A stretch of DNA of 64,000 nt from Gammaproteobacteria bacterium (GCA_965222155.1 CBDCTH010000012.1:160001-224000), one strand, 5' to 3'; shown: positions 1 through 14,842, counted from the stretch's first letter. Numbers and translations are program-made. The notes: generated by a model from the letters alone, not told the origin.

Positions 1-1412
1 AATGGGGAGCCATGGCCGGTGGATTCCGCCGCACAATCGCGATTGATGACCAGCAGGCGTCCATGCCAGGCGGCCGTATCAAGGATAAATTTTTTCGCTT
101 CCACGTCATTACCGGTAAACACCGAACCGACCAGGCTGCCCCTGCCTTTTTTTGCCAGCAGGATAGCCTCGCCGATATCCCGGTAGGGCATGATCGTACT
201 GACCGGGCCGAATGCTTCGACTGCATGGGGTTCGGCGGCAGTCAGGGGCTGGTCGCAATACAGCAGGGTAGAGGGGAAGAACGCGCCTTTATCTTTGTCT
301 CCTCCCCGGATTTCGAACTCCCTGGCGCCACCGTAGAGGATTTCACAGGAACTGGCCAACCGGTTCACGTTTTCCCATACGTCCCGCATCTGGGCGCGCC
401 CGACCAGGGGACCCATTTTAACGCCATCAATGGACGGGTCGCCGAGGGGGAACCTGTCCAGCCTTTGCTTCAGGGCGGCGACAACAGCCTCAACCCTGCC
501 TGCGGGTACGATGGCCCGCCTGATAGCGGTGCATTTCTGGCCTGCCTTGACCGTCATCTCTTTCGCTACTTCCTTGATGAACAGTTCAAACTCGACGGAA
601 TCCGGTTCAACCGTCTCTCCCAGTAGTGATAAATTCAGGGAATCCGCCTCCATGTTGAACGGGATGGAATTGGCAATCACGTTGGGGTGGGATTTCAGTT
701 TCCTTCCGGTGGCGGCCGACCCGGTGAAGGTGACGACGTCCTGTTCCATCAGGTGCTCGAACAGGTCTCCGGTGCCGCCGCAGAGCAACTGGAACGCGCC
801 TTCCGGCAGGAGCCCGGATTGCACGATTTCCCTGGCCATTTTCTCGGTCAGGTACGAGGAAACGGTGGCCGGTTTAACCAGCACCGGCATCCCTGCGCAC
901 AAGCTGGGTGCGATCTTCTCCAGCATGCCCCAGCAGGGAAAATTAAAGGCATTGATATGAACGGCCACGCCTTCCCTGGGGACCAGTATATGGCGGCCGG
1001 TAAATGTCCCCTGTTTCGACAGGCGTTCCTGCTCGCCTTCCAGCAGGAACGTCTCATTGGGAAATTCACGCCGGACCAGGCTGCTGTAACTGAACAGCGT
1101 GCCGATACCGCCTTCTATATCAATCCAGCTATCTGCCCGGGTCGCCCCGGTCCAGCCTGATACCTGATAAAACTCGTCCTTATGCTCCAGCAGGTGTTGC
1201 GCCAGCGCTTTCAGGCGCAAGGCACGCTCGTGCAACGTCATCCTGCGTAACGCAGGACCGCCGACTTCCCTGGCATGACGCAGTGCCTCTTTGAAATCCA
1301 CCCCGTCACTGGAGACGTTCCCTATGAAATTGCCGTTGACGGCATTGACAACCTCTACGCCGTTACCTCGGCCGCTGATCCACTCACCGTTTACATAGCT
1401 TTGTATATTCAT
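1..1412 (-). CDS. paaZ: Phenylacetate degradation bifunctional aldehyde dehydrogenase/ring-opening enzyme PaaZ (5' part; runs off the left edge)
   Basis: Missing from the ORF track because it is open at the edge. Manual minus-strand translation from ATG 1412 (RBS GAGGA upstream) gives MNIQSYVNGEWISGRGNGVEVVNAVNG...GGPALRRMTLHERALRLKALAQHL..., later AVHINAFNFPCWGMLEKIAP, typical of the PaaZ ALDH domain. Confidence 0.9.
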   Translation of the reverse strand, partial: MNIQSYVNGEWISGRGNGVEVVNAVNGNFIGNVSSDGVDFKEALRHAREVGGPALRRMTLHERALRLKALAQHLLEHKDEFYQVSGWTGATRADSWIDIEGGIGTLFSYSSLVRREFPNETFLLEGEQERLSKQGTFTGRHILVPREGVAVHINAFNFPCWGMLEKIAPSLCAGMPVLVKPATVSSYLTEKMAREIVQSGLLPEGAFQLLCGGTGDLFEHLMEQDVVTFTGSAATGRKLKSHPNVIANSIPFNMEADSLNLSLLGETVEPDSVEFELFIKEVAKEMTVKAGQKCTAIRRAIVPAGRVEAVVAALKQRLDRFPLGDPSIDGVKMGPLVGRAQMRDVWENVNRLASSCEILYGGAREFEIRGGDKDKGAFFPSTLLYCDQPLTAAEPHAVEAFGPVSTIMPYRDIGEAILLAKKGRGSLVGSVFTGNDVEAKKFILDTAAWHGRLLVINRDCAAESTGHGSP

Positions 1413-1838
1413 GTCAATTCCTCACTGTTCAGATTATGCTGTTCCACCGGATTCCAGTGTCCTGTCTCACAAATAACAGGGAATAATTATATCCTCAATT
1501 TCGATTCAGCTCACTTCAGACGTCGGTGGGATGTTGTTGCGTGAATTGAACCAACAGCTTGACTTACTGCGTCAGGTTGCATGATGTTTCGTTGATTATC
1601 GATACCTGGGGAGGGTGGAACACTTGGTGACAGCGTGGGTAGCGCAACGCATCCGGCGGGACCGGCTGCGCGTCGGTTTCGTGAGTGTCGTTATCGTACC
1701 CGGCAGACATGGCGTTGCACTCGGCGGGTGGCAGGCAAGGCAGATCACCTGGAACGGCGCCAACCCGCGTTCCGTGGCGACCAACCTGGACCTGGCGACC
1801 GTCGGCGCACAATCCTTGTATATAGAATTTCCTGTCCC

Positions 1839-2258
1839 TTATTGATCACAATTCGAACCTGGTTGTTGACAACAAGCCCACCAGCGAGGATAATCATTAT
1901 ACTCATCACCCTGCTTCGAAATCAGCCTGTTGTTTGTTCTTTTTTGTCCGGGTTGGAGCGTAAATATATCGTCTGAGCTGCCGTCAATAACAACTCTTAC
2001 CCTCACCGCTTGAGGACAGTTATTCGTGGCTACATAACCCCCGGAACCAGGAGAGCAATCGGTCGTTTTGGGATGAGCGCAACGCTGGGCAAAGCCTATC
2101 CCTGGAAACCAAAGTTCATAACAAGACGGTGGTTCCCTGAATTGCTTGCGAATGCAATCAGCTGAACTCGTCCCTGCAAAAACCAGGGTAGCCAGGAAAG
2201 CCATGGAAAGAATAAAAGCTTTTTTGTACACACGTTCCGGTAAATAACGAGTCATCAT
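1839..2258 (-). CDS. Secreted cysteine-rich small protein, tendamistat-like scaffold (paralog 1)
   Basis: Signal peptide ending ..GTSSA, 8 Cys in the mature part, strong RBS (AAGGAGG). Clear paralog of 10748..11182 (shared EPPxCY, CAHP, ATNxC, VRVV, IFTLxPG, RWWACC). Confidence 0.85.
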   Translation of the reverse strand: MMTRYLPERVYKKAFILSMAFLATLVFAGTSSADCIRKQFREPPSCYELWFPGIGFAQRCAHPKTTDCSPGSGGYVATNNCPQAVRVRVVIDGSSDDIFTLQPGQKRTNNRLISKQGDEYNDYPRWWACCQQPGSNCDQ

Positions 2259-2372
2259 TTTCCCTCCTTTGTTACTTCATATACCTGTTACTTTATAGTA
2301 CTCATTATTAAGAGGATTTTCTTCAAAAGTCAAACTGTTTGTCAGGAACTGTTGACCCCAAATATCCCATAA

Positions 2373-2397
2373 GAGGACGGATTTGAAATCCGTCCCC
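2373..2397. repeat. REP-like palindrome G(A/G)GGACGGATTTGAAATCCGTCCCC
   Basis: Near-identical copy at 55806..55830; related copies at 13749, 21515, 29217, 29267 and ~39156. Confidence 0.8.
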
Positions 2398-2747
2398 GGA
2401 GAGTCACGCGCCTTACCAGGCAGACCTCGGGAACGTCGTTAATCCAGGGTAACTGGCTATTAATGAAAAGTCCTCTAAAAAAAACTACCGTTGTTTTCAC
2501 ATGAAAAATTTTCTATTGATTCGGTCGGCTGCTTTCCTGAACTTCATTACCGGGTTTGAAAGTATGATTTACGTGGACAAAACTTTGAAGGCAGTGAAAC
2601 TTAATTTATCCGAGGATCATACATCAAAGTCAGGAATGGAAAAATATCGGAGTCTTGATTGATCAGGCGTTTCCAGCCCGTCAGGGCACTAAACCGTCAA
2701 AGTCGGGAAAAAGGTAGGAAAAAAGGTATTGAACCAGGACAAAAAAT

Positions 2748-2778
2748 TTGACAGTGTCAATGCACCTTAATCTATAAT
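2748..2778 (+). promoter_or_regulatory. Putative sigma70 promoter TTGACA-N19-TATAAT with the palindrome TTGACA-G-TGTCAA over the -35 box
   Basis: Both hexamers are consensus, with a long 19-nt spacer; lies upstream of the RTX/FG-GAP gene. Confidence 0.5.
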
Positions 2779-2981
2779 CAGTCTAATGAGAATAAGCTAT
2801 CCCGCTCAAGCAATGGAGACAATCAGCATGAGCCCGACCTTGGCAAACGGGAAGGGGCTGTCTGTACCAGGTTCTTCTGACCGGTTTAACGGTGCCAGGC
2901 GGGTGATGCCGGCCTGCCGTATCCTGTCGCTGGTCCCGGTCTTCACGCTCGGCAGGCTGCCGGCGGAAGCCAATAATTCTA

Positions 2982-3001
2982 CCCCCCCCCCCCCCCCCCC
3001 C
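2982..3001. repeat. Poly-C homopolymer (20 nt)
   Basis: Seen directly; lies between the putative promoter and the RTX gene start. Confidence 0.9.
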
Positions 3002-3216
3002 AAATCAAGCTTTTTCAGCAGGTTAGAACACGCCGTCGGCATCATGCGCTGGTCTGTAACAGCGCATTTCAGCACCCATTCGCTGCTTTATAGAGGAGTC
3101 CACCAGTACGGTGGGGCGTACCTCAGCTTTCACATGACTTCCCCCTGTCAACCCAAAACATACAGGGTTTCTTTGTCCCTTGAGACCTGTAGTCTGATAA
3201 CAACGAGGAGAGCAGC

Positions 3217-6200
3217 ATGACTAGTCTAAAAGAAGACTCCCGCAGTATCACCACCCAGAATCTTGATGGCGCCTCCACCGACAGTAACCCCGGGGATACC
3301 GTCTACAGCTATGACCCCAACGCGGCCGGCGACCCGCACTTCACCGAGCGCACCGGCATTGCCAATCCTTTAGATGGCATTGATGCAGGTTATTATAACT
3401 GGCCAACCTTTGCCGACCTGGACGATGACGGCGACCTGGACCTGGTCGTGAATGCGTCCTACTACTACGAGAACACGGGCACCGGCAATCAGCCAGACTT
3501 CACAGAACGTACCGGCGATGACAATCCTCTGGATGACGTCAGGTGGTCGTCAAGTGGTCCTCCTTCTTTTGCTGACCTGGACAACGATGGCGACCTGGAC
3601 CTGGTCGTGGGTGAAGATGATGGCGCCCTGTACTACTACGAGAACACCGGCAGCCGCAGTCAGCCGGGCTTCACCGCGCGCACTGGCACTGCCAATCCCC
3701 TGGCTGGTATCGATGGGGGTGATGACAGTACCCCAACCTTTGCCGACCTGGACGATGACGGCGACCTGGACCTGGTCGTGGGTGAGGTGGACGGCGCCCT
3801 GCACTACTATGAGAATACAGGCAGCCGCAGTCAGCCGGACTTCACCGGGCACGCCGGTGCCGCCAATCCTTTGGAGGGCATCTATTTGGGTTATCCTAAT
3901 GAGGGTGCTGCGCGCTATTATCATAATAGCACGCCAACCTTTACCGACCTGGATGATGACGGTGACCTGGACCTGGTCGTGGGTGATAATCACGGTACCC
4001 TGCATTACTACGAAAACACAGGGACACGCAGCCAGCCGAGCTTCATAGAGCGCAACGGCGCCGCCAATCCATTGGATGGTCTTGATGTGGATGAGGGCGG
4101 AGTGTTGGTTTGGGTGGTTCCCGACGATAACAGCGCGCCAACCTTTGCCGACCTGGACGGCGACGGTGACCCGGACCTGGTCGTGGGTGAGCCGGGCGGC
4201 ACCCTGCACTACTATGAGAATACGGGGACACGCAATTATCTGAACCTTATAGCAGATGACTTTGCCAATCCAATGGGTGGTGTCGATGTGGGTTATTTCA
4301 GCGCACCAGCGCTTGCCGACCTGGACGACGACGGTGACCTGGACCTGGTCGTGGGTGATGTCGACGGCGCCCTGCACTACTATGAGAACACGGGCACCCG
4401 CAGTCAGCCAACCTTCACCGAGCGCCCCGTCACCGCCAATCCCCTGGCGGACGTCGCTGTGAATACTGCTGAAGACTATATTGCCGTGCCGAGCTTTGTT
4501 GACCTGGACGACGACGGCGACCTGGACCTGGTCGTGACTGAGAGGGATGGCACCCTGAATTACTTCGAGAATACCGGCACACCCAGTCAGCCAGACTTCA
4601 CGGAGCGCACCGGTGTCGACAGTCATTTTAATGGCATTGAGCCGCATAGGAGTAAATTTCCTGTCTTTGCCGATTTGGATGGCGACGGTGACCCCGACCT
4701 GCTCTTCAGTGCCGGGAAAGGGTACTCAGCAGAGGTAACCTACTACGAGAACACCGGTACACCCAGTCAGCCGAACTTCATAAGCCGCGGTGACAGCTGG
4801 GATGCCAATATCGGTAGCCTGTGGCTGTTGGATGAGGATTTTTTTGCCTTCGCTGACTTGGACGGCGATGGTGACCTGGACATAGCCGCCCGCTCTAATC
4901 GCTACTACGAGAACATCGGCACCCACAGTCAGCCGGACTTTAGAGGTCGGAATTCGAAGTCTGATTATCCCAATAATCCCTTGTACCTTCTTTCTATGAA
5001 TGATGATGAACCACTAATTTTTGGTGACCTGGACGACGACGGTGACCTGGACCTGGTCAGGGGTAATAATGATGGCACTATCCACTACTTCGAGAACACC
5101 GGTACTCCCAATCAGGCAACCTTCGTAAAACGCATCGGTGGCTCCCATCCCTTCGATGGTCCCCCCTTAGCGGGCGTCGAGATAGGGCTTTTGTATATAG
5201 AAAATCTAGAAGGTAGTAATCCTGATGAGAAATACAAGCTAAATCCTGCATCTCGTCAGATGCAGCCCAAGCCAGCCTTTGCCGACCTGGATAATGACGG
5301 CGACTTAGACCTGGCCTTGGGTGAGGAATACGGCACCCTGTACTACTACGAGAACACGGGCACACCCAGTCAACCAGACTTCATAAGGCGCGTCGATGGT
5401 GGCAATCCTTTGGTGGACATTGATGTGGATAGTTTCGATAGTGCTCCTGCCTTTGCCGACCTGGACGATGACGGCGACCTGGACCTGGTCGTGGGTGATT
5501 GGAATGGCAATAGACTACACTACTACAAGAACATCGGCACACCCAGTCAGCCGAACTTTGCAGAGACCACCGGCACTGGCAATCCCTTGGGTGGCGTCGA
5601 GGCGTATTGGCTCAGCACCCCGACCTTTGCCGACCTGGACAGCGACGGTGACCTGGACCTGGTTGTGGGTGAGGGGCACGGCAGGTTGTTCTACTACGAG
5701 AACACCGGCAGCCGCAGTCAGCCGGTCTTCACAGAGCGCGGCGGTGGTGCTGATCCGTTGTCTGATATTGAGGTGAGTGCGGACAGTACCCCAACCTTTG
5801 CCGACCTGGACAGCGACGGCGACCTGGACCTGGTCGTGGGTGAGAGGGACGGCTACCTGAATTACTTCGAGAACATCGGCAGCCGCAGTCAGCCGGACTT
5901 CGCAGGCCATATGCATAGCAGTGCTGTCAATCCCTTGGAGGGTATCGATGTGGGTCACTACAGCGCCCCAACCTTTGCCGACTTGGACAACGATGGCGAC
6001 CTGGACCTGGTCGTGGGTGAGTGGTACGGCCATTTGTACCACTTTGAGAACACCGGCAGCCGCACCGACGCGAGTTTCACCCCATTACGGCTAAGCCAAT
6101 CGGTCGCATTGACATTGCACGACACAGGTGGCAGTGACACGCTCGACCTGCGCACGGATACGGCTGACCAGCGAGTCGACTTGCGTCCTGAAGGCATCTC

Positions 6201-7581
6201 GGACGTCTACGGTCTGGTCGGCAGTCTGGTCATCGCCCGGGGGACGGTGATTGAACACTTCATCGCCGGGTCTGGCAATGACACAATCATCGGCAATGCG
6301 GCCGCGAATCACTTACAGGGACGCTCTGGTAATGACAGTCTTTGGGGCAGTAGTGGTGATGATGTACTGGAGGGAGACGCTGGCGCTGATCGGTTGGAGG
6401 GCGGCGCTGGTGTTGACCAGCTGTCTGGTGGTGCCGGTGTGGACACGGTGTCCTATCAGGGGTCGGATGCCGGGGTGACGGTGAAGTTACGGGAGGGTAC
6501 CGGCGAGCGAGGCCATGCCGAGGGAGATGTGATTGCTGGGGTGGAGAACGTGATTGGGTCTGATTACCGGGACGTACTGGGCGGTGATAGCGGCGCCAAC
6601 CACCTGGTTGGGGGTGCTGGCAACGATGGACTGTGGGGCAGCGGTGGTGATGACGTACTGGAGGGTGGCGCTGGCGCTGACCGGCTGGAAGGTGGCGCCG
6701 GTGTGGACACCGTGTCCTATCAGGGGTCGGATGCCGGGGTGGCGGTGAAGTTGCGGGAGGGTACCGGAAAAAGAGGCCATGCCGAGGGGGATGTGATCGC
6801 TGAGGTGGAGAACGTGATCGGCAGTGATTATAACGATACCCTGGTCGGCGACAGCCTTGACAACCTGCTCACCGGCAACGCCGGCAATGATCTCCTCTGG
6901 GGCAGCGCCGGCAATGACATATTAATCGGTGGGCCAGGCGCGGACCGCCTGGTTGGCAGCAGCGGGCATGACACGGCTTCCTATACACATTCCCCCACCG
7001 GTGTCACGGTGCGCCTGCACAGCCTCTCGGCCACGGGCGGCGATGCGACCGGTGATACCTTCCCTTACCGGGTTGACGTCGCCTGGACCGATAGTGACGG
7101 TGTTGAGCAGACCGAATCCCTGCCCGATGTCGAGCACCTGAGCGGCTCTGCCCACGACGACGTGCTGGCCGGGGACCGCCGGGATAACGTCATCGACGGT
7201 GGCGCCGGCCACGACACCCTGTACGGCGGCCCGGGTGGCGGCGATGACCGGCTGGACGGTGGGCCGGGCGACGACCGGCTCTACGGCGGGCAGGGGAGGG
7301 ACCGCCTCGCCGGCGCTGCGGGAGACGACCGGTTGGTGGGTGGCCCGGGCGCCGACGTGTTCGTGGTGGCCCCCGGGGAGGGGCAGGACACCGTGACGGA
7401 CTTCACCGACGGCGAAGACCGCATTGACCTGACGGCCTTCGGGCTGGCGGGCATTGATGACCTCACCGTCGCGACCACAACAGACGGTGTGGCGCTTGAC
7501 CTCACCGACAGTGGCGGTGGCACGATCCTGCTGGCGGACTTTGCTATGGCCAGCCTGGATGCGACGGACTTTATTGTTTGA
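3217..7581 (+). CDS. Large secreted FG-GAP/VCBS-repeat protein with a serralysin-type C-terminal beta-roll and RTX Ca-binding repeats
   Basis: 15 DLDxDGDxD..YYENTG repeats, then ALTLHDTGGSDTLDL..GTVIEHFIAGSGND (Peptidase_M10_C-like), GGxGxD nonapeptides and a type I secretion-like C-terminus (DTVTDFTDGEDRIDL..DFIV). RBS GAGGAG upstream. Confidence 0.9.
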   Translation: MTSLKEDSRSITTQNLDGASTDSNPGDTVYSYDPNAAGDPHFTERTGIANPLDGIDAGYYNWPTFADLDDDGDLDLVVNASYYYENTGTGNQPDFTERTGDDNPLDDVRWSSSGPPSFADLDNDGDLDLVVGEDDGALYYYENTGSRSQPGFTARTGTANPLAGIDGGDDSTPTFADLDDDGDLDLVVGEVDGALHYYENTGSRSQPDFTGHAGAANPLEGIYLGYPNEGAARYYHNSTPTFTDLDDDGDLDLVVGDNHGTLHYYENTGTRSQPSFIERNGAANPLDGLDVDEGGVLVWVVPDDNSAPTFADLDGDGDPDLVVGEPGGTLHYYENTGTRNYLNLIADDFANPMGGVDVGYFSAPALADLDDDGDLDLVVGDVDGALHYYENTGTRSQPTFTERPVTANPLADVAVNTAEDYIAVPSFVDLDDDGDLDLVVTERDGTLNYFENTGTPSQPDFTERTGVDSHFNGIEPHRSKFPVFADLDGDGDPDLLFSAGKGYSAEVTYYENTGTPSQPNFISRGDSWDANIGSLWLLDEDFFAFADLDGDGDLDIAARSNRYYENIGTHSQPDFRGRNSKSDYPNNPLYLLSMNDDEPLIFGDLDDDGDLDLVRGNNDGTIHYFENTGTPNQATFVKRIGGSHPFDGPPLAGVEIGLLYIENLEGSNPDEKYKLNPASRQMQPKPAFADLDNDGDLDLALGEEYGTLYYYENTGTPSQPDFIRRVDGGNPLVDIDVDSFDSAPAFADLDDDGDLDLVVGDWNGNRLHYYKNIGTPSQPNFAETTGTGNPLGGVEAYWLSTPTFADLDSDGDLDLVVGEGHGRLFYYENTGSRSQPVFTERGGGADPLSDIEVSADSTPTFADLDSDGDLDLVVGERDGYLNYFENIGSRSQPDFAGHMHSSAVNPLEGIDVGHYSAPTFADLDNDGDLDLVVGEWYGHLYHFENTGSRTDASFTPLRLSQSVALTLHDTGGSDTLDLRTDTADQRVDLRPEGISDVYGLVGSLVIARGTVIEHFIAGSGNDTIIGNAAANHLQGRSGNDSLWGSSGDDVLEGDAGADRLEGGAGVDQLSGGAGVDTVSYQGSDAGVTVKLREGTGERGHAEGDVIAGVENVIGSDYRDVLGGDSGANHLVGGAGNDGLWGSGGDDVLEGGAGADRLEGGAGVDTVSYQGSDAGVAVKLREGTGKRGHAEGDVIAEVENVIGSDYNDTLVGDSLDNLLTGNAGNDLLWGSAGNDILIGGPGADRLVGSSGHDTASYTHSPTGVTVRLHSLSATGGDATGDTFPYRVDVAWTDSDGVEQTESLPDVEHLSGSAHDDVLAGDRRDNVIDGGAGHDTLYGGPGGGDDRLDGGPGDDRLYGGQGRDRLAGAAGDDRLVGGPGADVFVVAPGEGQDTVTDFTDGEDRIDLTAFGLAGIDDLTVATTTDGVALDLTDSGGGTILLADFAMASLDATDFIV

Positions 7582-7739
7582 TGGGATTTCGGTCCTTGGC
7601 TACACCATGCCGGAGTTCGCCCTGAAACAACAGCGTCTTCAGGGCAGGTTCTGAATTAGCGACACCAGATGTGATCAGGACAGATGCCGGATACTCGAAT
7701 TTATAGGGGCAGGAAGGCCATTTTTAAAGAAACAGGTAG

Positions 7740-8093
7740 ATGTACAGGTTCATTATTTTGATCATGTTTACAGCACTACTATTCGGGTGTGTATCAAGGA
7801 CTACTGTCGATGAAGCGGGGCGGGTCGTAGTACACAACTTTGGCTACGTCAGGATAATCAAGCCCCCTGTTTATCCGGCCGGTAAGACAATCAACGTAAC
7901 AGGGGCCAGGTTACTGGGTTTCAGCATCGGCGATGGCTTCACTATCGGCTACAAAGCGAATGAATACATACGCTTACCTTCCGATTGTCGGGTTCTCATA
8001 GTGGTAGAAGACGAACAGCAGTTGGATCATTTGTTTAACGAAATGTCGATAATTGCAGGAGAGGAAATATGCGCAGCAGTGTCACCAAAATAA
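7740..8093 (+). CDS. Hypothetical lipoprotein
   Basis: Lipobox LLFGC after a hydrophobic signal; lower GC than the flanking DNA. Confidence 0.7.
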   Translation: MYRFIILIMFTALLFGCVSRTTVDEAGRVVVHNFGYVRIIKPPVYPAGKTINVTGARLLGFSIGDGFTIGYKANEYIRLPSDCRVLIVVEDEQQLDHLFNEMSIIAGEEICAAVSPK

Positions 8094-8112
8094 CTCATTG
8101 AGACAGGCGTAG

Positions 8113-8865
8113 TTGTTATTGGCCGGGTGTGCAAGTACCCCAGAACATACCAACACGCTGTTGTTCGGCACAACCACAAAAGTTGCACTGGATGTTTCAA
8201 GCAGCCCGGTGGCGGGTGGAACGCCAAGTTTTACGTTGGGCTACAAAAGGCATGAGGGAGTTTTACTTCCGCTTCTTGCGAATAAAGAGACTAAGGAGGA
8301 ATCTGAACCCGCGGGCTGTACCGATGGTGGGAATGCTAGCTCTACTGATACTGGTTGTCTATTTATAGGCACAAGAGGTAAGGATACCTATTCTGTTCTG
8401 GCGAGTTTCGGTCTTAGATTTGGAAGTGGCTCCAAAACATCGAAGGGCGAATTAGCACAGTTTTTTGCAACAGGCATGGCCGCACAGAAATTAGCTGAAA
8501 AAGGCGGTGCACAGTTAGTCTCATCGACAGCGGATTTGCCAGATATAGATGCAAAGCCGCCCTCTGCAAAGGAAGCCCAAAAAGCCTATGAAATTATTAG
8601 TGAGTGTGTTTTTCCTAAAAACGGAGAGTCCGAGGAGAAAAAATTCATTGAGGAAAACTGGATAAAGATTGTGGTTCATTCATCTGTAGAAAATATACAG
8701 CTTCATATAGGAGTTACACTTAAAGATAACAAAAAAAAGGAAGATAGCTTAAGGGATTGGCTTAGTACTTTGAGGGCTGCAGAAGATACCGATATTATCA
8801 AGTTAGCTATCTCGGCAGAGATGGTATGCAATTCACAACAATCAACGGAGGCTAAAAATGACTAA
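8113..8865 (+). CDS. Hypothetical lipoprotein (signal peptide appears disrupted at the 5' end)
   Basis: Lipobox LLAGC sits right at the ORF start and is preceded by an in-frame TAG. The RBS plus ATG at 8069 is out of frame. Confidence 0.6.
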   Translation: MLLAGCASTPEHTNTLLFGTTTKVALDVSSSPVAGGTPSFTLGYKRHEGVLLPLLANKETKEESEPAGCTDGGNASSTDTGCLFIGTRGKDTYSVLASFGLRFGSGSKTSKGELAQFFATGMAAQKLAEKGGAQLVSSTADLPDIDAKPPSAKEAQKAYEIISECVFPKNGESEEKKFIEENWIKIVVHSSVENIQLHIGVTLKDNKKKEDSLRDWLSTLRAAEDTDIIKLAISAEMVCNSQQSTEAKND

Positions 8866-9064
8866 TATTACTGTACATGTTTTTGACGAAGAGTCACAAG
8901 CTAAAGATAAGGAGACAACGTTGAAAGGACAAAATTACACCCTGGTTTGTGGGACTCCAAAGCAGGTCAATTTCGCATTCACGAAAAATGCAACAAACTG
9001 CACAGACACAAACTCGTATAATTTCAGCTGCCATTCGGTATGGGTTGTAATCGCGGAGAAATAA
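8858..9064 (+). CDS. Small hypothetical protein
   Basis: RBS GGAGG; overlaps the stop of the previous gene (operon-like); 68 aa with 3 Cys. Confidence 0.55.
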   Translation: MTNITVHVFDEESQAKDKETTLKGQNYTLVCGTPKQVNFAFTKNATNCTDTNSYNFSCHSVWVVIAEK

Positions 9065-9289
9065 ATCATAACAATTGCATCAACTCGTACTGGCCAAAGC
9101 TGTGCTGTTTCGCGTTGTAGCTTTGAACAATGAGTAGTAGTCAAAGCCGGTGCATAGTCAGATGGCCTGTTTGTGGTGTTGTGGAATTCCCAGGGCAGTG
9201 ACGAAAGGCTCATTCGCAAACCGGTAGGTGCCCTTCAATACTCTTCTCGAAAGTTCCTGCTACAGGCAGATGGGGGTTGTTTTTCCGCC

Positions 9290-9570
9290 TCTCTTTCATG
9301 CCAGTCAGCGGAGTACCTCGGAGCCGTGTTCGCCAGCTTTCGGCAAATCCTGCCGCAGTCCGGGTCGCTGCCCTTGCAGTTCCAATGGAATGGCCGGCAA
9401 CCGGGTTTTTTCGCCGTTCGAAGGGGTGATGTCCAATAGCCCTGAGGATTGCATCAGATACGGATCAGTGAACAGGTCCTCTGGTGTCACGATGGGGGCA
9501 AAAGGCAGGCCGGTATGTTCAAGCCAGGCTATTAACTCCTCTTTGCTGTAGGATTTAAATAGCGGTTTGA
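9290..9570 (-). pseudogene. 3' fragment of a CaiB/BaiF family III CoA-transferase
   Basis: Translation SKEELIAWLEHTGLPFAPIVTPEDLFTDPYL...LPKAGEHGSEVLR matches the family's C-terminal pattern; the 5' part is absent. Confidence 0.65.
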
Positions 9571-9606
9571 ATCAGATCGTGCATGATGGCGCTATCCAAA
9601 CATCAT

Positions 9607-9725
9607 TAGAACCTATCCCAAAATTGTCTGAGCAGGATACCGATGGATACGAACTGGATGAATCCGAGAAAATTCTATGCGTAGTACTCCCATCGAGTGA
9701 GAAGACGACGCTGCCGCTTCATCCA
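9607..9725. mobile_element. Possible IS5/IS4-type terminal remnant
   Basis: End-like TAGAACCTATCCCAAAA followed by a sequence resembling IS termini; no transposase. Confidence 0.3.
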
Positions 9726-9921
9726 GTGTGGCTGCTAACCTGTTGTCCGGAACAGGTGAAATGATCTCGGTGCAACTGTCAACCTTTGGGGTCCAATCGG
9801 GAAACAATTTGTCAAATGTATTCATTGGTTAGACCTACTTCTAATCGACTGCGATACTATCATCATTTGGACTTGGACCGGCGCAGCATCGAGTCATTGG
9901 ACAAGAGGCCTATGGCTGAAT

Positions 9922-10330
9922 TCAGGGCTGCCGCGCAAGAAAATCTTCAATTGATATGGCGACTGAAGGGAATGAGGCAAGGACTTTTTTGTCTTGAGTG
10001 ACCAGGGGACAATCAAGATATTCAGCGAGCGCAACTAATTCGCAATCATAAGATGAGCAAGCGCTTCTCTCCAGGTGGGTAAATACTTGTGAGGAAGCAA
10101 TATCAAATTCGTTGTTGAGCATAATGGATTCGGCAACCTCTTGTAGTTGTAATGCTTTTCCAGGAGTAATCAGTTTTTTCTTGAATAAAGCGCCAGAACA
10201 TTGCGAAATTTACTCTTCCAGAGAATGGGTGCCGCCCAGTGTGGATCAATCCGATATAGTTTATCTGCGAAATCGAGTGGGATGCAGGAAGCAACAAATA
10301 GGAAATAATATTTGTATCAGCGATAATCAC
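9922..10330 (-). pseudogene. vapC: Frameshifted PIN-domain (VapC/FitB) toxin
   Basis: N-terminal MIIADTNIISYLL and C-terminal SSYDCELVALAEYLDCPLVTQDKKVL lie in different frames. Confidence 0.8.
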
Positions 10331-10545
10331 GGCCGCCCTTCGTTAATGGCACAGGTAATATCCTCAGTTGTAACAATATCGGGACGGATCTGTGAGCGAA
10401 GCATCCGGATATATTTGAGTCTGTCTTCCGGATTGATTTTTTCAGGCTGCAAAGTACGCTTGAGGCAAACGATCACTTCACTGTTAATACTTCTATGATG
10501 TTGTTCGGCAGTAAGTTTGAGTCGGTGACAAAATATCCGTGTTAT
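10327..10545 (-). pseudogene. Arc/RHH-type (FitA-like) antitoxin, start lost
   Basis: HRLKLTAEQHHRSINSEVIVCL...AINEGRP* overlaps the vapC start; an upstream in-frame stop and no start codon. Confidence 0.7.
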
Positions 10546-10598
10546 GTTCTAAGGGCCTGCTTCGCCGGCATGACAAAAATACGGCACGACAAAAACAC

Positions 10599-10626
10599 TT
10601 GACAAACCCTCAGGAGAGGCTATACT
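10599..10626 (+). promoter_or_regulatory. Putative sigma70 promoter TTGACA-N16-TATACT
   Basis: Near-consensus hexamers upstream of 10748..11182. Confidence 0.55.
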
Positions 10627-10747
10627 GGTGAGCAGTGCCATTGTGCATCGTCGCTGGTGCCTGAGGGGGCGTCGCAGGAGAACAAATCTATCTCTTGACA
10701 GGAAATACTGTTGTCACTATGCAATATAACTACAGGAGACTATCATC

Positions 10748-11182
10748 ATGCACATAACTCAACTTCTCACCTCCCGCTCAGTTACATTGGCGAGCACGTT
10801 TATGGTGTTGTGTCTGCTTACCTCAGTGAGCGTTGCAGAGTGTTCCAGGTCCTCGTTCTGGGAACCACCCGCTTGTTATCAGCTTGATTTCGTTCAATAT
10901 CCAGGAGGCCCCCCTGTTGACTCCAGGGAATGTGCTCATCCGAGCGGAAAGAACTGCTATTACCCCAAGGAACTCCGTGCTACGAACAGCTGTAATTACG
11001 AGGTGAAGGTGAGAGTCGTCGTCAATAAAGGTGAAGACGAGATATTTACGCTCAAACCTGGGGGGACACGGTCTTCGAAGGCTTTTCAATCCGATTACCA
11101 TGATGGTTCAGAAAAAAGTTCAAAATCTGCTTACTACCGCTGGTGGGCTTGTTGTCGCGAGGGTAACGCGCAGTGTAAGTAG
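10748..11182 (+). CDS. Secreted cysteine-rich small protein, tendamistat-like scaffold (paralog 2)
   Basis: Signal peptide ..VSVA, 8 mature Cys collinear with paralog 1; RBS AGGAG. Confidence 0.85.
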   Translation: MHITQLLTSRSVTLASTFMVLCLLTSVSVAECSRSSFWEPPACYQLDFVQYPGGPPVDSRECAHPSGKNCYYPKELRATNSCNYEVKVRVVVNKGEDEIFTLKPGGTRSSKAFQSDYHDGSEKSSKSAYYRWWACCREGNAQCK

Positions 11183-11458
11183 ACGGGCAGGTGATTTTGA
11201 TGCCGGCCTCTGTTTATCGCACTACGGCACTTTATTTATCTGGTAATAATCTCCTACAAGTTGTAGGAGATTATTACCACCCACGAAACAAACAAGACAA
11301 CCAACAAATCGTTCACGTCACGGAACAATTCAATGGCCCTATCCCTCCCCGGACGTACTCGAACGATATAATCAGGTAGCTCGCGGAACCAACTCAGCCC
11401 CCTACTGTTCCGGAGGTACGTTAACTGGTTCCGCCCCTGTTCCCTGGAAGCCTCTGGC

Positions 11459-11890
11459 CTATTCGCAAGTCTCGAATTGACCCGGATTGGAATTATTATC
11501 CAGGTAGTCGCGACAACACTGCACTCTCGTAAATTCCAGTCTTTTGTCGGCGATGTCGTCGGAGGAGACAACGTCTGTCAGCATTAGCGTCTCGGTATCG
11601 CCGCGATTAAGGAATATATGGATGCTCTGCTCCCGGGTCTGCACCGTGGCTTTCCGGCTCAAGACATCCGACGTGACGATAACACGTTTTGTACAGGCGC
11701 TCGTAGCCGAAATGCGGGTTTCCGATTCCTGCACCGTCACGCAAGCAGGCGGCCTTTTACGCTCGGCATCCGGGCAAAGCTCGTAGGGCGTTATCTTCAC
11801 CCCGGCCTGCGTACTGATGGAAGTCATCAAGACCACCAACACAAATAGCGCCAGAGTCCTGAAACGTATGCTGGTATAATCAATATTCAT
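11459..11890 (-). CDS. Secreted cysteine-rich small protein, tendamistat-like scaffold (divergent paralog 3)
   Basis: Signal peptide ..STQA; C..PPAC-x15-C..CC..C pattern (6 Cys); RBS AAGGAGG. Confidence 0.75.
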   Translation of the reverse strand: MNIDYTSIRFRTLALFVLVVLMTSISTQAGVKITPYELCPDAERKRPPACVTVQESETRISATSACTKRVIVTSDVLSRKATVQTREQSIHIFLNRGDTETLMLTDVVSSDDIADKRLEFTRVQCCRDYLDNNSNPGQFETCE

Positions 11891-12425
11891 GGTTGCGCCT
11901 CCTTTGAATTCGAGTTTTGTACCTTTCGCATCGAACGACTCGGCCCTCGGACAGCTTATATGTGAAACCCAGGATAACTGACAGGTCCCACGACTGAGCT
12001 TACGAGTAGCTTACCACCGAAGTTTATCACGTGTCAATCCCATCCCTCCCTTTACCCCTCCCTTTACCCCTAACCCGATTTAGAATGGGGCGGAATAGAA
12101 AAAGCCTTGTCTGTATAACAGTTTGCTCGAACAACAACCTTCACCCAATGGGTGCGCAGACAAGGCGTATGCAGAGAATACCGTATCAGATAGAGGACAC
12201 TTTCTGCGCCGGATTTGGAGCGCTCTGCTGATTTGCGCTACGGATACGCCGGATTGGAGAGCGCCGGCAACGGTATCCGCCGTTCTTGCAAAACTCGGGG
12301 CCGGGAATTGGAATCCGGGCGTCGGTTAAACAGGGCTTGTCCGGTCTGACCATGATATGATACGAGAATCAGGTGATAACAGATATTTCTGTAATGATTT
12401 AAAACGCTATCAGCAGGTGCATGGT

Positions 12426-13727
12426 ATGACCGAACCCGGCGCATTAGACACCCTGGAATCCATCGAAAAGGCCAGTACGGATGAATTACAGGATTTACAA
12501 CTGAGGCGACTCAAGTGGAGCCTGGAACATACATATACCAATGTCGAGTGTTACAGGAAGAAATTTGATGAGGCCGGCGTGTACCCGTCAGACCTGAAGG
12601 AGTTGAGCGATCTCTCCAAATTCCCGCTGACGGACAAGCATGACTTGCGGGACAACTATCCCTTCGGCATGTTTGCCGTACCCATGGACGGGGTAGTGCG
12701 GATACATGCATCCAGCGGCACTACGGGCAAGCCTGTGGTCGTGGGTTATACCAGGAATGACATCGACACCTGGAGCCGGGTTGTGGCCCGGTCAATCCGG
12801 GCGGCCGGCGGAACCCACAAAGACAAAATCCACGTGGCTTATGGCTACGGGTTGTTTACCGGTGGTCTCGGCGCTCATTACGGCGCTGAACTGATGGGTT
12901 GTACTGTGATACCCATGTCCGGCGGACAGACGGAAAAACAGGCGCAACTCATCCGGGACTTTGACCCCGATATCATTATGGTGACGCCGTCATACATGTT
13001 GAGCATCGCGGATGAACTGGAGCGGCAGGGCGTCGATTGCTGCAAACTTAAATTGCGGGTGGGAATATTCGGCGCGGAACCCTGGACGGATTCCATGCGC
13101 GCCAACCTGGAACGGAGACTGGCCATTGACGCGCTGGATATTTACGGGTTATCCGAGGTGATGGGCCCCGGCGTCGCCCAGGAATGTGTGGAGACAAAGG
13201 ACGGCCCCACGATCTGGGAAGATCACTTCTATCCGGAAATCATCAATCCGGAGACCGGAGAGGCGCTGGCGGATGGGGAAAAAGGCGAACTGGTGTTTAC
13301 CAGTCTCACCAAGGAAGCCTTGCCGGTGATACGATACAGGACCCGGGATTTAACCAGACTGTTGCCGGGAACGGCCCGCACCATGCGCCGGATGGACAAG
13401 ATAACCGGTCGCAGCGACGACATGCTGATCATCCGTGGCGTGAACGTGTTTCCCACCCAGGTGGAAGAGCAGGTACTCAAGGTCGACAGCCTGGCGCCCC
13501 ACTATCAGATCGAGATAACCCGAAGTGAAAATCTGGATGAAATGACGATCAACGTGGAATTGTCGCCCGGCGCCGCTGCCACAGCGAAACAGTCGGCGGC
13601 TGCCGAACTGCAGAGACATATTAAAGACCTCATCGGAGTTTCAACAAGGGTCAACGTGCTTGATGAGGGTGGCGTCGCCCGCTCGGAAGGCAAGGCCAAG
13701 CGCGTGATCGACAAGCGGAAATTATAA
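12426..13727 (+). CDS. paaK: Phenylacetate-CoA ligase
   Basis: IHASSGTTGKP, GYGLFTGGLG, DIYGLSE, IRYRTRD and GRSDDMLIIRGVNVFP motifs. Confidence 0.95.
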   Translation: MTEPGALDTLESIEKASTDELQDLQLRRLKWSLEHTYTNVECYRKKFDEAGVYPSDLKELSDLSKFPLTDKHDLRDNYPFGMFAVPMDGVVRIHASSGTTGKPVVVGYTRNDIDTWSRVVARSIRAAGGTHKDKIHVAYGYGLFTGGLGAHYGAELMGCTVIPMSGGQTEKQAQLIRDFDPDIIMVTPSYMLSIADELERQGVDCCKLKLRVGIFGAEPWTDSMRANLERRLAIDALDIYGLSEVMGPGVAQECVETKDGPTIWEDHFYPEIINPETGEALADGEKGELVFTSLTKEALPVIRYRTRDLTRLLPGTARTMRRMDKITGRSDDMLIIRGVNVFPTQVEEQVLKVDSLAPHYQIEITRSENLDEMTINVELSPGAAATAKQSAAAELQRHIKDLIGVSTRVNVLDEGGVARSEGKAKRVIDKRKL

Positions 13728-13778: not shown

Positions 13779-14219
13779 TTATTTCCCCAGCTTGTCTTTG
13801 ATTTGGTTGAGTAACTCTTCCCGGTGCTGGTGCATCTCGATGAGCGGTTCTTTGCGCAGTTTACCGATTTCCTCAGCGCTATAGGGGACAAACGGATCCG
13901 GCAGTTCGTTTTTGCTGAAATTCAACAGTATCCAGTTCATCACGTCGCCCAGTTCCTGATCTGAGATGGGGGCGCCGGCCGCGCCCGGCACCTGCACGAG
14001 AAATTCCCTGCCGCCGGGTACGTGCAGGAAATATCCCACAAAATCATTCATCTTCGGTACGCTGCCCTCGGAACCGGAACCGTCGGGCAGGTGGCAGCCC
14101 TGGCAGTTCAGGATATAATTCTGTCTTGCCAGTACCTCATTGGCGCTGGCGGTTGCGCTGTGACATGACAACAGGAGGAGCAGGACGACAACGCGCATAC
14201 GGAATATGTCAGCTCTCAT
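13779..14219 (-). CDS. Monoheme class I cytochrome c, probable electron acceptor of the amine dehydrogenase
   Basis: Signal peptide, NYILNCQGCHLPDG (CxxCH) and GGREFLVQVPG. Start uncertain (14198-14288). Confidence 0.8.
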   Translation of the reverse strand: MRADIFRMRVVVLLLLLSCHSATASANEVLARQNYILNCQGCHLPDGSGSEGSVPKMNDFVGYFLHVPGGREFLVQVPGAAGAPISDQELGDVMNWILLNFSKNELPDPFVPYSAEEIGKLRKEPLIEMHQHREELLNQIKDKLGK

Positions 14220-14301
14220 ATCTACACTTCTCACAAATTCAGATCTGCAGGATAAAAACCCTTCCGCTATCCTGTAAATCCTGTTCATCCATGTTAACCC
14301 T

Positions 14302-14820
14302 TTATTTTATCGCCACGCCCAAAATGAGGTTCACGGTACAATGATATGCTGAACTCTTTGTCCCGATACACCAGTTGTAATCATTCGACGTATGCGGCCG
14401 GTAAGTCGGTCTGTCCCCTTCGTTCCTGTTGCAGAAACAGTTGCCGCAGGATCCCTTACCACAGCAGTCGTTATAGGAGATGATATAGTCTTTCCCGTCT
14501 CCCGGGTTTTTGCAGGTACCAATCCAGGTGACCGATGACATTTCCGTACCGGGCGGGCAACTGTTGACGGTCCCGCCGCAGCAGGAGCACAGGTAGCCGT
14601 CAATGGCGCAGTTACGCCAGTAATCACAGGTTGCCGGGTCCCCCGGGTCTGCCGTGGGCGGGCCGGGTTGATCGGTCTCTGCGGCGCGGGCAACAGGCAA
14701 TAAGGGCATGAGTGAAACGCCGGCGACCATCCCCCCCAGTCCGCCGAGGAAACCCCTGCGTGAAGACGTTTTGGCTACGTTTCTTGAAATATTTTCCGTG
14801 AGTTTGTCTAACCAGTTCAT
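14302..14820 (-). CDS. aauA: TTQ amine dehydrogenase small subunit (aromatic amine dehydrogenase-like)
   Basis: Tat signal SRRGFL; CDYWRNCAIDGYLCSCCGG; TTQ-forming Trp residues in TWIGTC and NDYNWC. Closer to the AADH pattern than to MADH. Confidence 0.9.
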   Translation of the reverse strand: MNWLDKLTENISRNVAKTSSRRGFLGGLGGMVAGVSLMPLLPVARAAETDQPGPPTADPGDPATCDYWRNCAIDGYLCSCCGGTVNSCPPGTEMSSVTWIGTCKNPGDGKDYIISYNDCCGKGSCGNCFCNRNEGDRPTYRPHTSNDYNWCIGTKSSAYHCTVNLILGVAIK

Positions 14821-14842
14821 TCTTTTCTTCTCCGGATGACGC

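What the first reader, a model, noticed from the sequence alone, without database searches (positions are those of the whole stretch)
1839..11890. Family of three secreted, disulfide-stapled tendamistat-like proteins: candidate undescribed inhibitor/binder system
Seen: ORFs 1839-2258(-), 10748-11182(+) and 11459-11890(-) each have their own RBS, a signal peptide and a shared skeleton C..PP[S/A]C...AT[N/S]xC..VxV....CC..C; paralogs 1 and 2 also share FTLxPG. Recalled knowledge: Streptomyces tendamistat reads EPAPSCVTLYQSWRYSQADNGCAETVTVKVV...AVAPGQ. Paralog 3 (PPACVTVQESETRISATSAC) has the same 15-residue spacing between these two Cys, and paralogs 1 and 2 keep NxC..VRVV and (L)xPG. None has the amylase-binding WRY, and all add an N-terminal Cys and a C-terminal CC..C clamp. 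Inference: a small beta-sandwich scaffold best known from actinomycetes has expanded in a proteobacterium as standalone secreted effectors that bind other targets, such as host or competitor hydrolases.
Basis: partly seen in the sequence, partly recalled or inferred. Interest (0 to 1): 0.82.

Follow-up and report, generated by a model that had tools for sequence, protein, structure and literature searches.

The report
Rare exported tendamistat-like cysteine-stapled proteins
A Gram-negative bacterium carries seven genes for small exported, disulfide-stapled beta-sandwich proteins found almost nowhere else; five of them probably share the fold of the Streptomyces amylase inhibitor tendamistat but lack its amylase-binding motif, so their target is unknown.

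Summary
The three ORFs are real, each with a Shine-Dalgarno site and an AxA-type signal peptide. They belong to two families, not one.

Family A (window 1839-2258 and 10748-11182) has 5 genes in this genome. They are clear paralogs (33% identity, E 3e-26), with 8 Cys in most members. Family B (11459-11890) has 2 genes and 6 Cys. B shows no significant sequence similarity to A, only a topologically equivalent Cys framework and the same general Ig-like sandwich.

B gives only generic Ig-like matches.

Both families are near-orphans: a profile of A found two outside proteins among 1.84 billion representatives. Three of the genes lie in a 10.9-kb island that relatives lack.

Most likely these are exported binders or inhibitors of a non-amylase target. 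That function is inferred, not shown.

The parts
1839..2258 (-). Family A gene 1 (P0001, 139 aa). The signal peptide is residues 1-33. The mature protein is 106 aa with 8 Cys.
   Evidence: ORF, translation. Paralog of P0002 at E 3e-26. AF2 model of the mature part has pLDDT 77 and pTM 0.73. Tendamistat is the top structural hit.
10748..11182 (+). Family A gene 2 (P0002, 144 aa). The signal peptide is residues 1-30, and the mature protein has 8 Cys.
   Evidence: It is 72% identical in DNA over about 485 bp to the two P0005 copies elsewhere in the genome.
11459..11890 (-). Family B gene 1 (P0003, 143 aa). The signal peptide is residues 1-29. The mature protein is 114 aa with 6 Cys. It is convergent with gene A2, with 276 bp between the two stop codons.
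   Evidence: There is a second copy elsewhere in the genome at 63% identity. AF2 model has pLDDT 75 and pTM 0.65 and predicts seven strands. Structural matches are generic Ig-like.
2160..2258 (-). Signal-peptide coding part of P0001, ending TSSA|DC.
   Evidence: Read from the sequence. The AxA-type end is shared by all family A members in the alignment. No signal-peptide predictor was run.
10748..10837 (+). Signal-peptide coding part of P0002, ending VSVA|EC.
   Evidence: Read from the sequence.
11804..11890 (-). Signal-peptide coding part of P0003, ending STQA|GV.
   Evidence: Read from the sequence.
2304..2333 (-). Sigma-70-like site (TTGACT-18-AATAAT, 10 of 12 matches) 46 nt upstream of the P0001 start codon.
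   Evidence: The number of such sites in the region is not above the shuffles (4 found against a mean of 2.1), so this is only a consensus match.
10599..10626 (+). Sigma-70-like site (TTGACA-16-TATACT, 11 of 12 matches) about 120 nt upstream of the P0002 start codon.
   Evidence: The region has 3 such sites against a mean of 1.9 in shuffles, which is not significant.
1432..12340 (.). A species-specific insertion of about 10.9 kb that carries all three genes. It also holds a 1454-aa FG-GAP/RTX protein, two lipoprotein-like ORFs and small ORFs. It sits between a divergent aldehyde dehydrogenase gene and a phenylacetate-CoA ligase gene.
   Evidence: In 10 of 11 same-genus loci examined the two flanking genes are adjacent. 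Homology to relatives stops at window position 1431 and resumes at about 12341-12354. A diverged contig in run X1 joins 668-1424 directly to 12424-13106.

Best explanation
These are two lineage-restricted families of small proteins. They are exported by the Sec pathway, lose a signal peptide, and are then locked by disulfides formed outside the cytoplasm.

Family A has 5 genes in this genome, 2 of them in the window. It adopts a six-stranded tendamistat-type beta-sandwich and is probably a very distant relative of that scaffold. It keeps a Cys pair at the sites of tendamistat's first disulfide (PPxC before strand 1 and NxC after strand 2). It lacks tendamistat's second disulfide and its Trp-Arg-Tyr warhead. 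In place of the tight warhead hairpin it has a 23-27-residue loop with its own Cys pair and a nearly invariant C-A-H-P. It also has an N-terminal Cys and a C-terminal CC...C clamp.

By inference, all the staples except the loop one sit at one pole. The opposite pole carries the CAHP loop, the strand 3-4 turn and a hypervariable strand 5-6 loop (10-23 residues, 12% mean pairwise identity). The most likely mode of action is a rigid, protease-resistant binder. It would plug or cover a target protein with that loop-bearing pole, most probably an enzyme other than alpha-amylase. It could act in the periplasm, or outside the cell via the type II secretion system.

Family B (2 genes, 1 in the window) is a seven-stranded Ig-like sandwich. 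Its six Cys occupy topologically equivalent places. It may be a remote relative of A or may merely resemble it.

Shown: the genes, the paralogy within each family, rarity, the island, and the model-based fold similarity. Inferred: the disulfide pairing, the binding pole, the inhibitor function, the location, and any link between A and B.
For: Real, selected genes.
- All 7 genes have open frames, and most have strong Shine-Dalgarno sites.
- The two P0005 copies differ by 3 substitutions in 435 nt, all synonymous. Their flanks diverge (61 mismatches in 230 ungapped upstream nt).

Fold.
- The AF2 model of mature P0001, from a 6-sequence alignment, has pLDDT 77 and pTM 0.73 with six strands.
- Foldseek against PDB ranks tendamistat entries 1 and 2 (1hoe, E 0.01, TM 0.60 normalised to the target; 1bvn_T, TM 0.64) and parvulustat 5.

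Sequence.
- A family A profile against 177,635 PDB sequences returns 2 hits at E<=10. The best is tendamistat (E 0.79), with the family's NxC aligned to tendamistat Cys27, then VxVxVV and PG.
- PF01356 is the only Pfam hit of P0006 (E 0.012, 16 bits).
- The best PF01356 hit in the whole six-frame genome falls in that same gene (E 0.038).

Disulfide inference. P0006 lacks exactly two Cys, the first of the CC pair and the last Cys. This suggests that those two pair with each other.

Binder-like variation.
- Strands 3, 4 and 6 are 60-78% conserved. Strand 5 and the strand 5-6 loop are 12-15% conserved, with length changes.
- dN/dS between paralogs is 0.59-0.67 where dS is not saturated.

Export route. 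A GspD secretin scores above its cut-off, and TonB-dependent receptors show an outer membrane.

Not an amylase system. There is no WRY in the sequences, and no GH13 domain was found in this genome (100% complete by marker genes) while 13 of 14 control genomes ring.

Link between A and B.
- The six Cys of B sit at the same places relative to predicted strands as six of A's eight.
- The two models share many structural neighbours: 7skp, 7skn, 8yk5, 8oxv, 4kty, 4be5, 3o0l, 1zld.
- The same three unnamed ESM Atlas clusters are nearest to both.
Against: Every tendamistat signal is weak on its own.
- Foldseek's E is 0.01, above its 0.001 line.
- The PDB profile hit has E 0.79. The family B profile gets equally good chance hits (E 0.8), and P0001 alone gets an unrelated dehydratase at E 0.13.
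- Single-sequence PDB searches with P0006, P0009 and P0001 do not find tendamistat.
- PF01356 scores 16 bits against a cut-off of 25. It is seen for 1 of the 6 family A proteins scanned.

The lines of evidence are not independent. They rest largely on one segment (NxC..VxVxVV...FTLxPG). AlphaFold, working from only 6 sequences, may have been drawn to a memorised structure by that same segment. The segment also matches a divergent InlB B-repeat protein (7 stretches, E 9e-8), so it may be a generic hairpin motif.

I had no model coordinates, so Cys-Cys distances and the binding-pole geometry were not measured.

P0009 has 7 Cys, an odd number.

No target, no conserved neighbouring gene and no expression data exist.

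A and B show no significant sequence similarity.
Confidence: 0.5

Rival explanations
1. Convergent small Ig-like sandwiches with no evolutionary link to tendamistat and no inhibitor role. They could instead be matrix or adhesion modules, or small secreted toxin- or effector-like proteins.
Against: Three different methods all put the same tiny family first: Foldseek, VIA-align without Foldseek, and HMM searches of PDB and Pfam. The structural alignment is 27-28% identical to tendamistat, against mostly 4-16% for the other rows, and it covers 69 of 71 residues. A Cys aligns with tendamistat Cys27. The other copies of A and B have no adhesin neighbour.
Confidence: 0.3
2. Periplasmic immunity-type inhibitors. 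On this reading the proteins stay in the periplasm and neutralise incoming cell-wall or membrane-degrading toxins from competitors, and the multiple diverged copies are a collection of orphan immunity genes.
For: There is only a Sec signal, with no dedicated exporter gene beside any copy. The 7 stand-alone genes are scattered next to mobile or addiction elements: transposase fragments, an XRE-type antitoxin-like gene and a REP-type transposase-like gene. Those neighbour names were assigned by eye from the ORF translations and rest on recall. dN/dS is high and one loop is hypervariable. Three of the genes lie in an island that relatives lack.
Against: No toxin or effector gene is adjacent to any copy. 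No TssC sheath gene was found in this genome, although orphan immunity genes do not need one. No PADLOC or immunity-family search was run. Nothing ties the fold to known immunity proteins.
Confidence: 0.12
3. Canonical tendamistat-type alpha-amylase inhibitors.
For: The fold and local sequence resemble tendamistat.
Against: There is no Trp-Arg-Tyr in the strand 1-2 connection of any member. That hairpin is replaced by a 23-27-residue loop. The second disulfide is not conserved: tendamistat Cys45 aligns with a non-Cys residue. The proteins score below the Pfam cut-off. No GH13 gene was found in the genome.
Confidence: 0.03
4. Family B (paralog 3) is unrelated to family A. On this reading the shared cysteine pattern and the adjacency of the two genes are coincidence.
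For: No sequence method links them. The other B copy has no A gene nearby, and the other A copies have no B gene nearby. B has an extra N-terminal strand and two short helices. Tendamistat is not among the rows shown for B.
Against: All six Cys of B map to equivalent positions relative to strands in A, including C-x10-C with PPxC and a CC at the end of the last strand. The two models share structural neighbours. The same three ESM Atlas clusters are nearest to both. Both families are near-orphans confined to this genome.
Confidence: 0.45

Closest known systems
Tendamistat / parvulustat family of Streptomyces alpha-amylase inhibitors (Pfam PF01356 A_amylase_inhib, SMART00783; PDB 1HOE, 1BVN chain T, 2KER)
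   Same: Both are small secreted six-stranded beta-sandwiches. Family A has a Cys just before strand 1 (after a Pro-rich PPxC) and a Cys after strand 2 (NxC). It then has a VxVxVV strand and an xPG turn. Tendamistat is the top structural hit for family A, and there are sub-threshold HMM matches.
   Different: Family A is below the Pfam cut-off. It has no WRY triad, and the warhead hairpin is replaced by a long loop with its own Cys pair and a CAHP motif. It lacks the equivalent of the second disulfide (Cys45). It has three extra presumed disulfides, including N- and C-terminal clamps. The mature protein is about 105 aa rather than 74. The host is a diderm bacterium without GH13 genes, whereas passages of PMC13240717 report the family in 38 of 295 Streptomyces species, correlating with higher amylase gene numbers. 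Family B shows none of the specific signals.
Generic small Ig-like / ToxA-like beta-sandwiches (de novo Ig domains 7SKP/7SKN, RbmA 4BE5, ToxA 1ZLD, Avr2 5OD4, DUF1425 3O0L)
   Different: Sequence identity is 5-16%. These proteins have no shared Cys framework. The functions of these neighbours are heterogeneous, so they predict nothing specific.
Periplasmic proteinaceous enzyme inhibitors of Gram-negative bacteria, such as ecotin, Ivy/PliC/MliC lysozyme inhibitors and the serralysin inhibitor Inh (recalled; not searched here)
   Same: The concept is the same: a Sec-exported small stable protein that blocks a hydrolase.
   Different: No sequence or fold link was seen. None of these appeared among the listed structural matches.

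Membership tests
Tendamistat family (Pfam PF01356 / SMART00783) | Score above the Pfam gathering cut-off (25 bits) | tested here: not met
   P0006 scores 16 bits, E 0.012. P0001, P0002, P0005, P0008 and P0009 show no PF01356 row at E<=10, and neither do P0003 and P0007. The best six-frame hit in the genome scores 16.4 bits.
Tendamistat family (Pfam PF01356 / SMART00783) | Six-stranded two-sheet beta-sandwith of tendamistat topology | tested here: met
Tendamistat family (Pfam PF01356 / SMART00783) | The same fold in family B (P0003) | tested here: inconclusive
   Tendamistat is not among the rows shown in the Foldseek, VIA-wide or VIA second-look searches of the B model. The fold is a seven-stranded Ig-like sandwich.
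Tendamistat family (Pfam PF01356 / SMART00783) | First disulfide (Cys11-Cys27; numbering partly recalled) | tested here: inconclusive
   The HMM alignment puts the family's NxC Cys on tendamistat Cys27. The PPxC Cys lies just before strand 1 in the model. Bonding itself could not be checked because no model coordinates were available.
Tendamistat family (Pfam PF01356 / SMART00783) | Second disulfide (Cys45-Cys73; partner recalled) | tested here: not met
   In the HMM alignment tendamistat Cys45 faces a non-Cys column of family A. Family A instead has CC at the end of the last strand, plus N-terminal and tail Cys.
Tendamistat family (Pfam PF01356 / SMART00783) | Trp-Arg-Tyr triad in the strand 1-2 turn (position recalled as 18-20) | tested here: not met
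   No WRY occurs in any of the 6 family A or 3 family B sequences. The turn is replaced by a 23-27-residue loop.
Tendamistat family (Pfam PF01356 / SMART00783) | Tight inhibition of alpha-amylase | not testable with these tools
   This needs purified protein and enzyme assays.
   BLASTP gives E 27 and 0.024. hhalign gives probability 0.65%. Shuffle tests give z from -1.1 to 1.6 in 24 of 24 comparisons.
   The six Cys of B correspond to six of A's eight relative to predicted strands. The two models share structural neighbours. This shows resemblance, not homology.

The most novel reading that the evidence does not exclude
Families A and B together are an undescribed, horizontally moving superfamily of tendamistat-fold mini-binders in Gram-negative bacteria. 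One pole of the sandwich is riveted by three disulfides. The other pole carries a disulfide-locked CAHP loop and a hypervariable loop, which diversify between paralogs to hit different foreign enzymes. This would be a small repertoire of protein inhibitors comparable in logic to antibody CDRs. It would also be the first tendamistat-type scaffold outside actinomycetes with a new warhead.
Probability: 0.2. Interest if true: 0.7.

Novelty: new variant of a known kind. Interest (0 to 1): 0.45.

Why it matters
If the fold assignment holds, the tendamistat scaffold would no longer be a Streptomyces amylase-inhibitor speciality. Tendamistat is a classic model for protein folding and inhibitor design. 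Here the scaffold would appear in a diderm bacterium with a different disulfide architecture and a different binding loop, which implies other targets. Such hyper-stapled 100-residue domains are attractive as stable binder scaffolds. A new natural target would add a class of proteinaceous enzyme inhibitor.

The finding has clear limits. The families are almost confined to one genome. The fold rests on a shallow-alignment model and weak scores. No function is shown.

Tried and rejected
**Wider relatives**
- The word-indexed search of 5.8 billion proteins found only the queries themselves, plus a near-copy of the second B gene.
- The genome contigs and metagenome-contig scans with the YxRWWxCC pattern each gave one locus. 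The metagenome locus (L023) overlaps a 180-aa ORF that I read by eye as a pseudouridine-synthase-like gene. The Saccharicrinis locus (L016) is a 14-residue match that I did not open. I treat both as not related.
- tblastn of P0002 and P0003 against 72,556 plasmids gave no match.
- The G032 hit (E 0.0084, a 66-aa frame with 2 TGA) was not opened and is treated as chance. The G005 hit lies in a 322-aa repeat protein with a signal peptide, beta-propeller-like by eye, and is also treated as chance.

**Annotation and look-ups**
- NCBIfam found no family for any of 6 proteins.
- The ESM Atlas gave no named family. The scores were 0.90 for A and 0.81 for B, to unnamed clusters.

**Expression**
- No RNA holder was listed among 9 runs.
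- The laid runs are DNA contigs and say nothing on expression.

**Tendamistat in family B and elsewhere**
- Tendamistat was not among the rows shown for the family B model in Foldseek, VIA-wide or the VIA second look.
- PF01356 found no match at E<=0.01 in a sample of 400 other genomes of the phylum or in G000 itself. Nothing rang in the controls either, so this says little.

**Other checks**
- Promoter and terminator scans did not exceed shuffles.
- A 'formosin' literature search, meant to identify the structural neighbour 9HKJ, returned only unrelated papers.
- Literature searches for 'tendamistat-like', for 'tendamistat' with 'fold', 'secreted' and 'effector', for 'tendamistat' with 'proteobacteria', and for 'PF01356' found no report of a non-actinobacterial tendamistat-like family. 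I read only listings, except for passages of PMC13240717.
- I did not run complex prediction, because I make no claim that specific proteins bind each other.
- I could not obtain natural tendamistat-family sequences through the tools, so no profile-profile (hhalign) test of A against that family was made.
Full report
**1. What is there**

Each is preceded by a GGAGG/AGGAG-type site 5-10 nt before the ATG. Each starts with a hydrophobic leader ending in a small-x-small cleavage motif (SSA|D, SVA|E, TQA|G; read from the sequences, no predictor run).

Sigma-70-like hexamers lie upstream of the first two genes. Such sites are not more frequent there than in shuffled sequence.

**2. Two families, and more than three genes**

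P0001 and P0002 are clear paralogs: 33% identity, E 3e-26. A search of the window's own genome (4.55 Mb, 12 contigs) found five genes of this family, which I call A. Two are in the window. Two more encode an identical 144-aa protein (P0005). The fifth encodes a 125-aa form that lacks the C-terminal clamp (P0006).

P0003 has one paralog at 63% identity (P0007, 161 aa). These two form family B.

Nothing significant links A and B at sequence level:
- BLASTP gives E 27 and 0.024, the latter over the signal peptide plus PPAC.
- hhalign gives probability 0.65%, E 0.088.
- 24 of 24 local and global alignments scored within -1.1 to +1.6 sd of 500 shuffles each.

**3. Evidence that the genes are real and under selection**

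The two P0005 copies differ at 3 of 435 ORF positions, and all 3 changes are synonymous. Their flanks have diverged: 95% identity over 679 bp overall, with 61 mismatches in 230 ungapped upstream nt.

Between paralogs with unsaturated dS, dN/dS is 0.59-0.67 for A and 0.65 for B. P0001 against P0002 gives 0.27 with dS 2.4, which is saturated.

Within family A the core strands 3, 4 and 6 show 60-78% mean pairwise identity. Strand 5 and the strand 5-6 loop show 12-15%, and the loop varies from 10 to 23 residues.

**4. Rarity**

- No Pfam or NCBIfam family passes its cut-off.
- A family A profile was run with HMMER over 1.84 billion cluster representatives and found 6 proteins at E<=0.001. Three are the genome's own. 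One is P0008 (145 aa), close to P0002. One is P0009 (146 aa, E 1.9e-19, 7 Cys). The last is a 1051-aa protein whose divergent InlB B-repeats match only the 21-residue strand 3-4 hairpin.
- With profile A1, family A was not found in 22 other species of the genus or in 24 other genomes of the class. It gave one dubious hit among 14 other genera of the family (E 0.0084, two in-frame TGA).
- With profile A3, family A was not found in 399 other scored genomes of the class.
- Family B was found only in this genome among 61 genomes. One further hit was treated as chance.
- The word-indexed search found only a near-copy of P0007.
- Plasmid, genome-contig and metagenome-contig scans added nothing.

**5. 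Genomic setting**

The three window genes lie in an insertion of about 10.9 kb. In 10 of 11 same-genus loci examined, the aldehyde dehydrogenase gene (window 3-1412, minus strand) and the phenylacetate-CoA ligase gene (12357-13727) are adjacent and divergent. Similarity to relatives ends at window position 1431 and resumes at about 12341-12354. A roughly 12%-diverged low-depth contig in one public run joins 1424 to 12424 directly.

The insertion also carries these features:
- a 1454-aa FG-GAP/RTX protein;
- two lipoprotein-like ORFs without a family;
- small ORFs;
- a G+C content of 46-48% between 8 and 12 kb, against about 53-55% around it.

The other copies of A and B sit beside unrelated genes, and several are next to transposase-like or antitoxin-like genes. 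Those neighbours were named by eye from the translations. No neighbouring gene is conserved.

**6. Fold**

AlphaFold2 on mature P0001 with the 6-sequence alignment gave pLDDT 77 and pTM 0.73, with six strands. Mature P0003 with 3 sequences gave pLDDT 75 and pTM 0.65, with seven strands and two short helices.

For the A model the results are:
- Foldseek over 350,542 PDB chains ranks tendamistat first and second (1hoe, E 0.01; 1bvn_T, E 0.064) and parvulustat fifth.

Sequence methods point the same way, but weakly:
- The A profile has only two PDB hits at E<=10. The best is tendamistat at E 0.79. It aligns the family's NxC Cys with Cys27, then VxVxVV, then PG.
- PF01356 is the only Pfam row for P0006, at E 0.012 and 16 bits against a cut-off of 25.
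- The best PF01356 hit in the whole six-frame genome is in that same gene.

**7. Caveats on the fold assignment**

- Chance hits at E 0.1-1 are common in these searches. The B profile gets one at 0.8, and P0001 alone gets one at 0.13 to a dehydratase.
- Single-sequence searches with three A members do not find tendamistat.
- Only 1 of the 6 A proteins scanned shows the Pfam row.
- All signals share one sequence segment. That segment also matches InlB B-repeats, and it may have steered AlphaFold.

I therefore rate a tendamistat-type fold for A at roughly 75-80%, with true homology somewhat lower. I do not file A as a member of PF01356.

**8. How A differs from tendamistat**

There is no WRY. 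The tight strand 1-2 hairpin that carries WRY in tendamistat (position recalled) is replaced by a 23-27-residue connection. This connection has its own Cys pair and a C-A-H-P motif, which is invariant in 5 of 6 members and reads C-S-H-R in P0009.

Tendamistat Cys45 aligns with a non-Cys residue. In its place A has an N-terminal Cys, a CC at the end of the last strand and a tail Cys.

P0006 has lost exactly the first C of the CC pair and the tail Cys. I infer from this that those two pair with each other and that the N-terminal Cys pairs with the second C of the CC. This is inference, because I had no coordinates.

The genome has no detectable GH13 alpha-amylase domain, while 13 of 14 control genomes ring.

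**9. Family B**

Even so, its six Cys sit where six of A's eight sit relative to the strands. The shared layout is C-x10-C with PPxC before strand 1, a Cys after strand 2, CC at the end of the last strand, and a tail Cys. The two models share many structural neighbours. The same three unnamed ESM Atlas clusters are nearest to both: 0.90, 0.87 and 0.86 for A, and 0.81, 0.80 and 0.78 for B. Those scores are leads only.

I put A-B homology at about even odds.

**10. Mechanism**

What is shown: the proteins have export signals, many Cys, a conserved core and hypervariable loops. The cell is diderm, as TonB-dependent receptors show. It has a GspD secretin above its cut-off. It has no TssC.

What is inferred: the proteins are oxidised in the periplasm into very rigid sandwiches. 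One pole carries three staples. The other pole exposes the CAHP loop, the strand 3-4 turn and the hypervariable strand 5-6 loop. These loops form a binding face, as the corresponding pole does in tendamistat. The proteins act as tight binders or inhibitors of a non-amylase protein, either in the periplasm (defensive) or outside the cell via the type II system (offensive).

The rivals are convergent Ig-like modules with adhesive or toxin-like roles, periplasmic immunity proteins, and, improbably, true amylase inhibitors.

**11. Known literature**

Passages of PMC13240717 describe tendamistat-like peptides as a Streptomyces feature. They were found in 38 of 295 species, some lie inside acarbose-type clusters, and their presence correlates with higher amylase gene numbers. 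[quoted passage not shown]

Four full-text searches found no report of a tendamistat-like family in Gram-negative bacteria (listings only).

**12. Verdict**

The families are new and nearly unique to one genome, and their function is open.

Noticed in passing
window 1432-12340: A roughly 10.9-kb species-specific insertion splits an otherwise adjacent divergent gene pair, an aldehyde dehydrogenase and a phenylacetate-CoA ligase. Ten of 11 same-genus loci have the pair adjacent. No integrase or tRNA was looked for at its ends.
   Followed up: partly
window 3217-7581 (+): A 1454-aa protein with at least 9 FG-GAP-like repeats, at least 9 RTX nonapeptide stretches and a serralysin-type C-terminal region, but no peptidase domain. 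It looks like a type I-secreted adhesin and lies next to family A gene 1.
   Followed up: no
window 7740-8093 (+), 8113-8865 (+), 8858-9064 (+): Two ORFs have lipobox-like leaders (LFGC, LAGC; read by eye), and a third is a 68-aa ORF. None has a Pfam family. They sit in the lowest-G+C part of the insertion (46%).
   Followed up: no
window 9922-10330 (-): Two short overlapping ORFs of 66 and 75 aa. The second begins MIIADTNI..., which recalls VapC/PIN toxins (from recall; no Pfam hit at E<=0.001). This may be a broken toxin gene.
   Followed up: no
G000:C12:1900893-1901327 and 3255318-3255752: Two copies encode the identical family A protein P0005. They differ by only 3 synonymous changes, and the duplicated stretch is only about 680 bp with unrelated flanks. 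One copy lies beside ORFs that look like transposase fragments (named by eye).
   Followed up: partly
P0005 and P0009, strand 5-6 loop: The hypervariable loop of P0005 reads ...KWRHG... and that of P0009 reads ...TWRSRHGG.... These are Trp-Arg-containing strings faintly reminiscent of tendamistat's Trp-Arg-Tyr, but in a different loop. They are not conserved in the other members.
   Followed up: no
window 44139-46309 (+): A DNA methylase plus an NgoMIV-type restriction enzyme lie in a 44.6% G+C stretch. They are wedged between catabolic genes and the paaA/paaC/paaD genes.
   Followed up: no
window 23556-24772 (-): A carbon-nitrogen hydrolase is split into two overlapping ORFs: profile positions 14-115 in one and 128-255 in the other. 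This is probably a frameshift or a pseudogene.
   Followed up: no
window 36701-37339 (+): A DDE_Tnp_1 transposase ORF of 213 aa lies between a TonB-dependent receptor gene and an acyl-CoA synthetase gene.
   Followed up: no
window 13779-15997 (-): Light- and heavy-chain genes of a methylamine/aromatic-amine dehydrogenase type quinoprotein, followed by a 169-aa ORF with a CxxCH motif (read by eye, probably a c-type cytochrome). They lie directly after the phenylacetate-CoA ligase gene.
   Followed up: no
ESM Atlas look-ups for mature P0001 and mature P0003: Both queries return the same three unnamed clusters of 80-96-aa hypothetical proteins, in the same order (77, 52 and 138 members; Pseudomonadota and Myxococcota). 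Their sequences could not be retrieved here. They may be the nearest wider relatives of both families.
   Followed up: no
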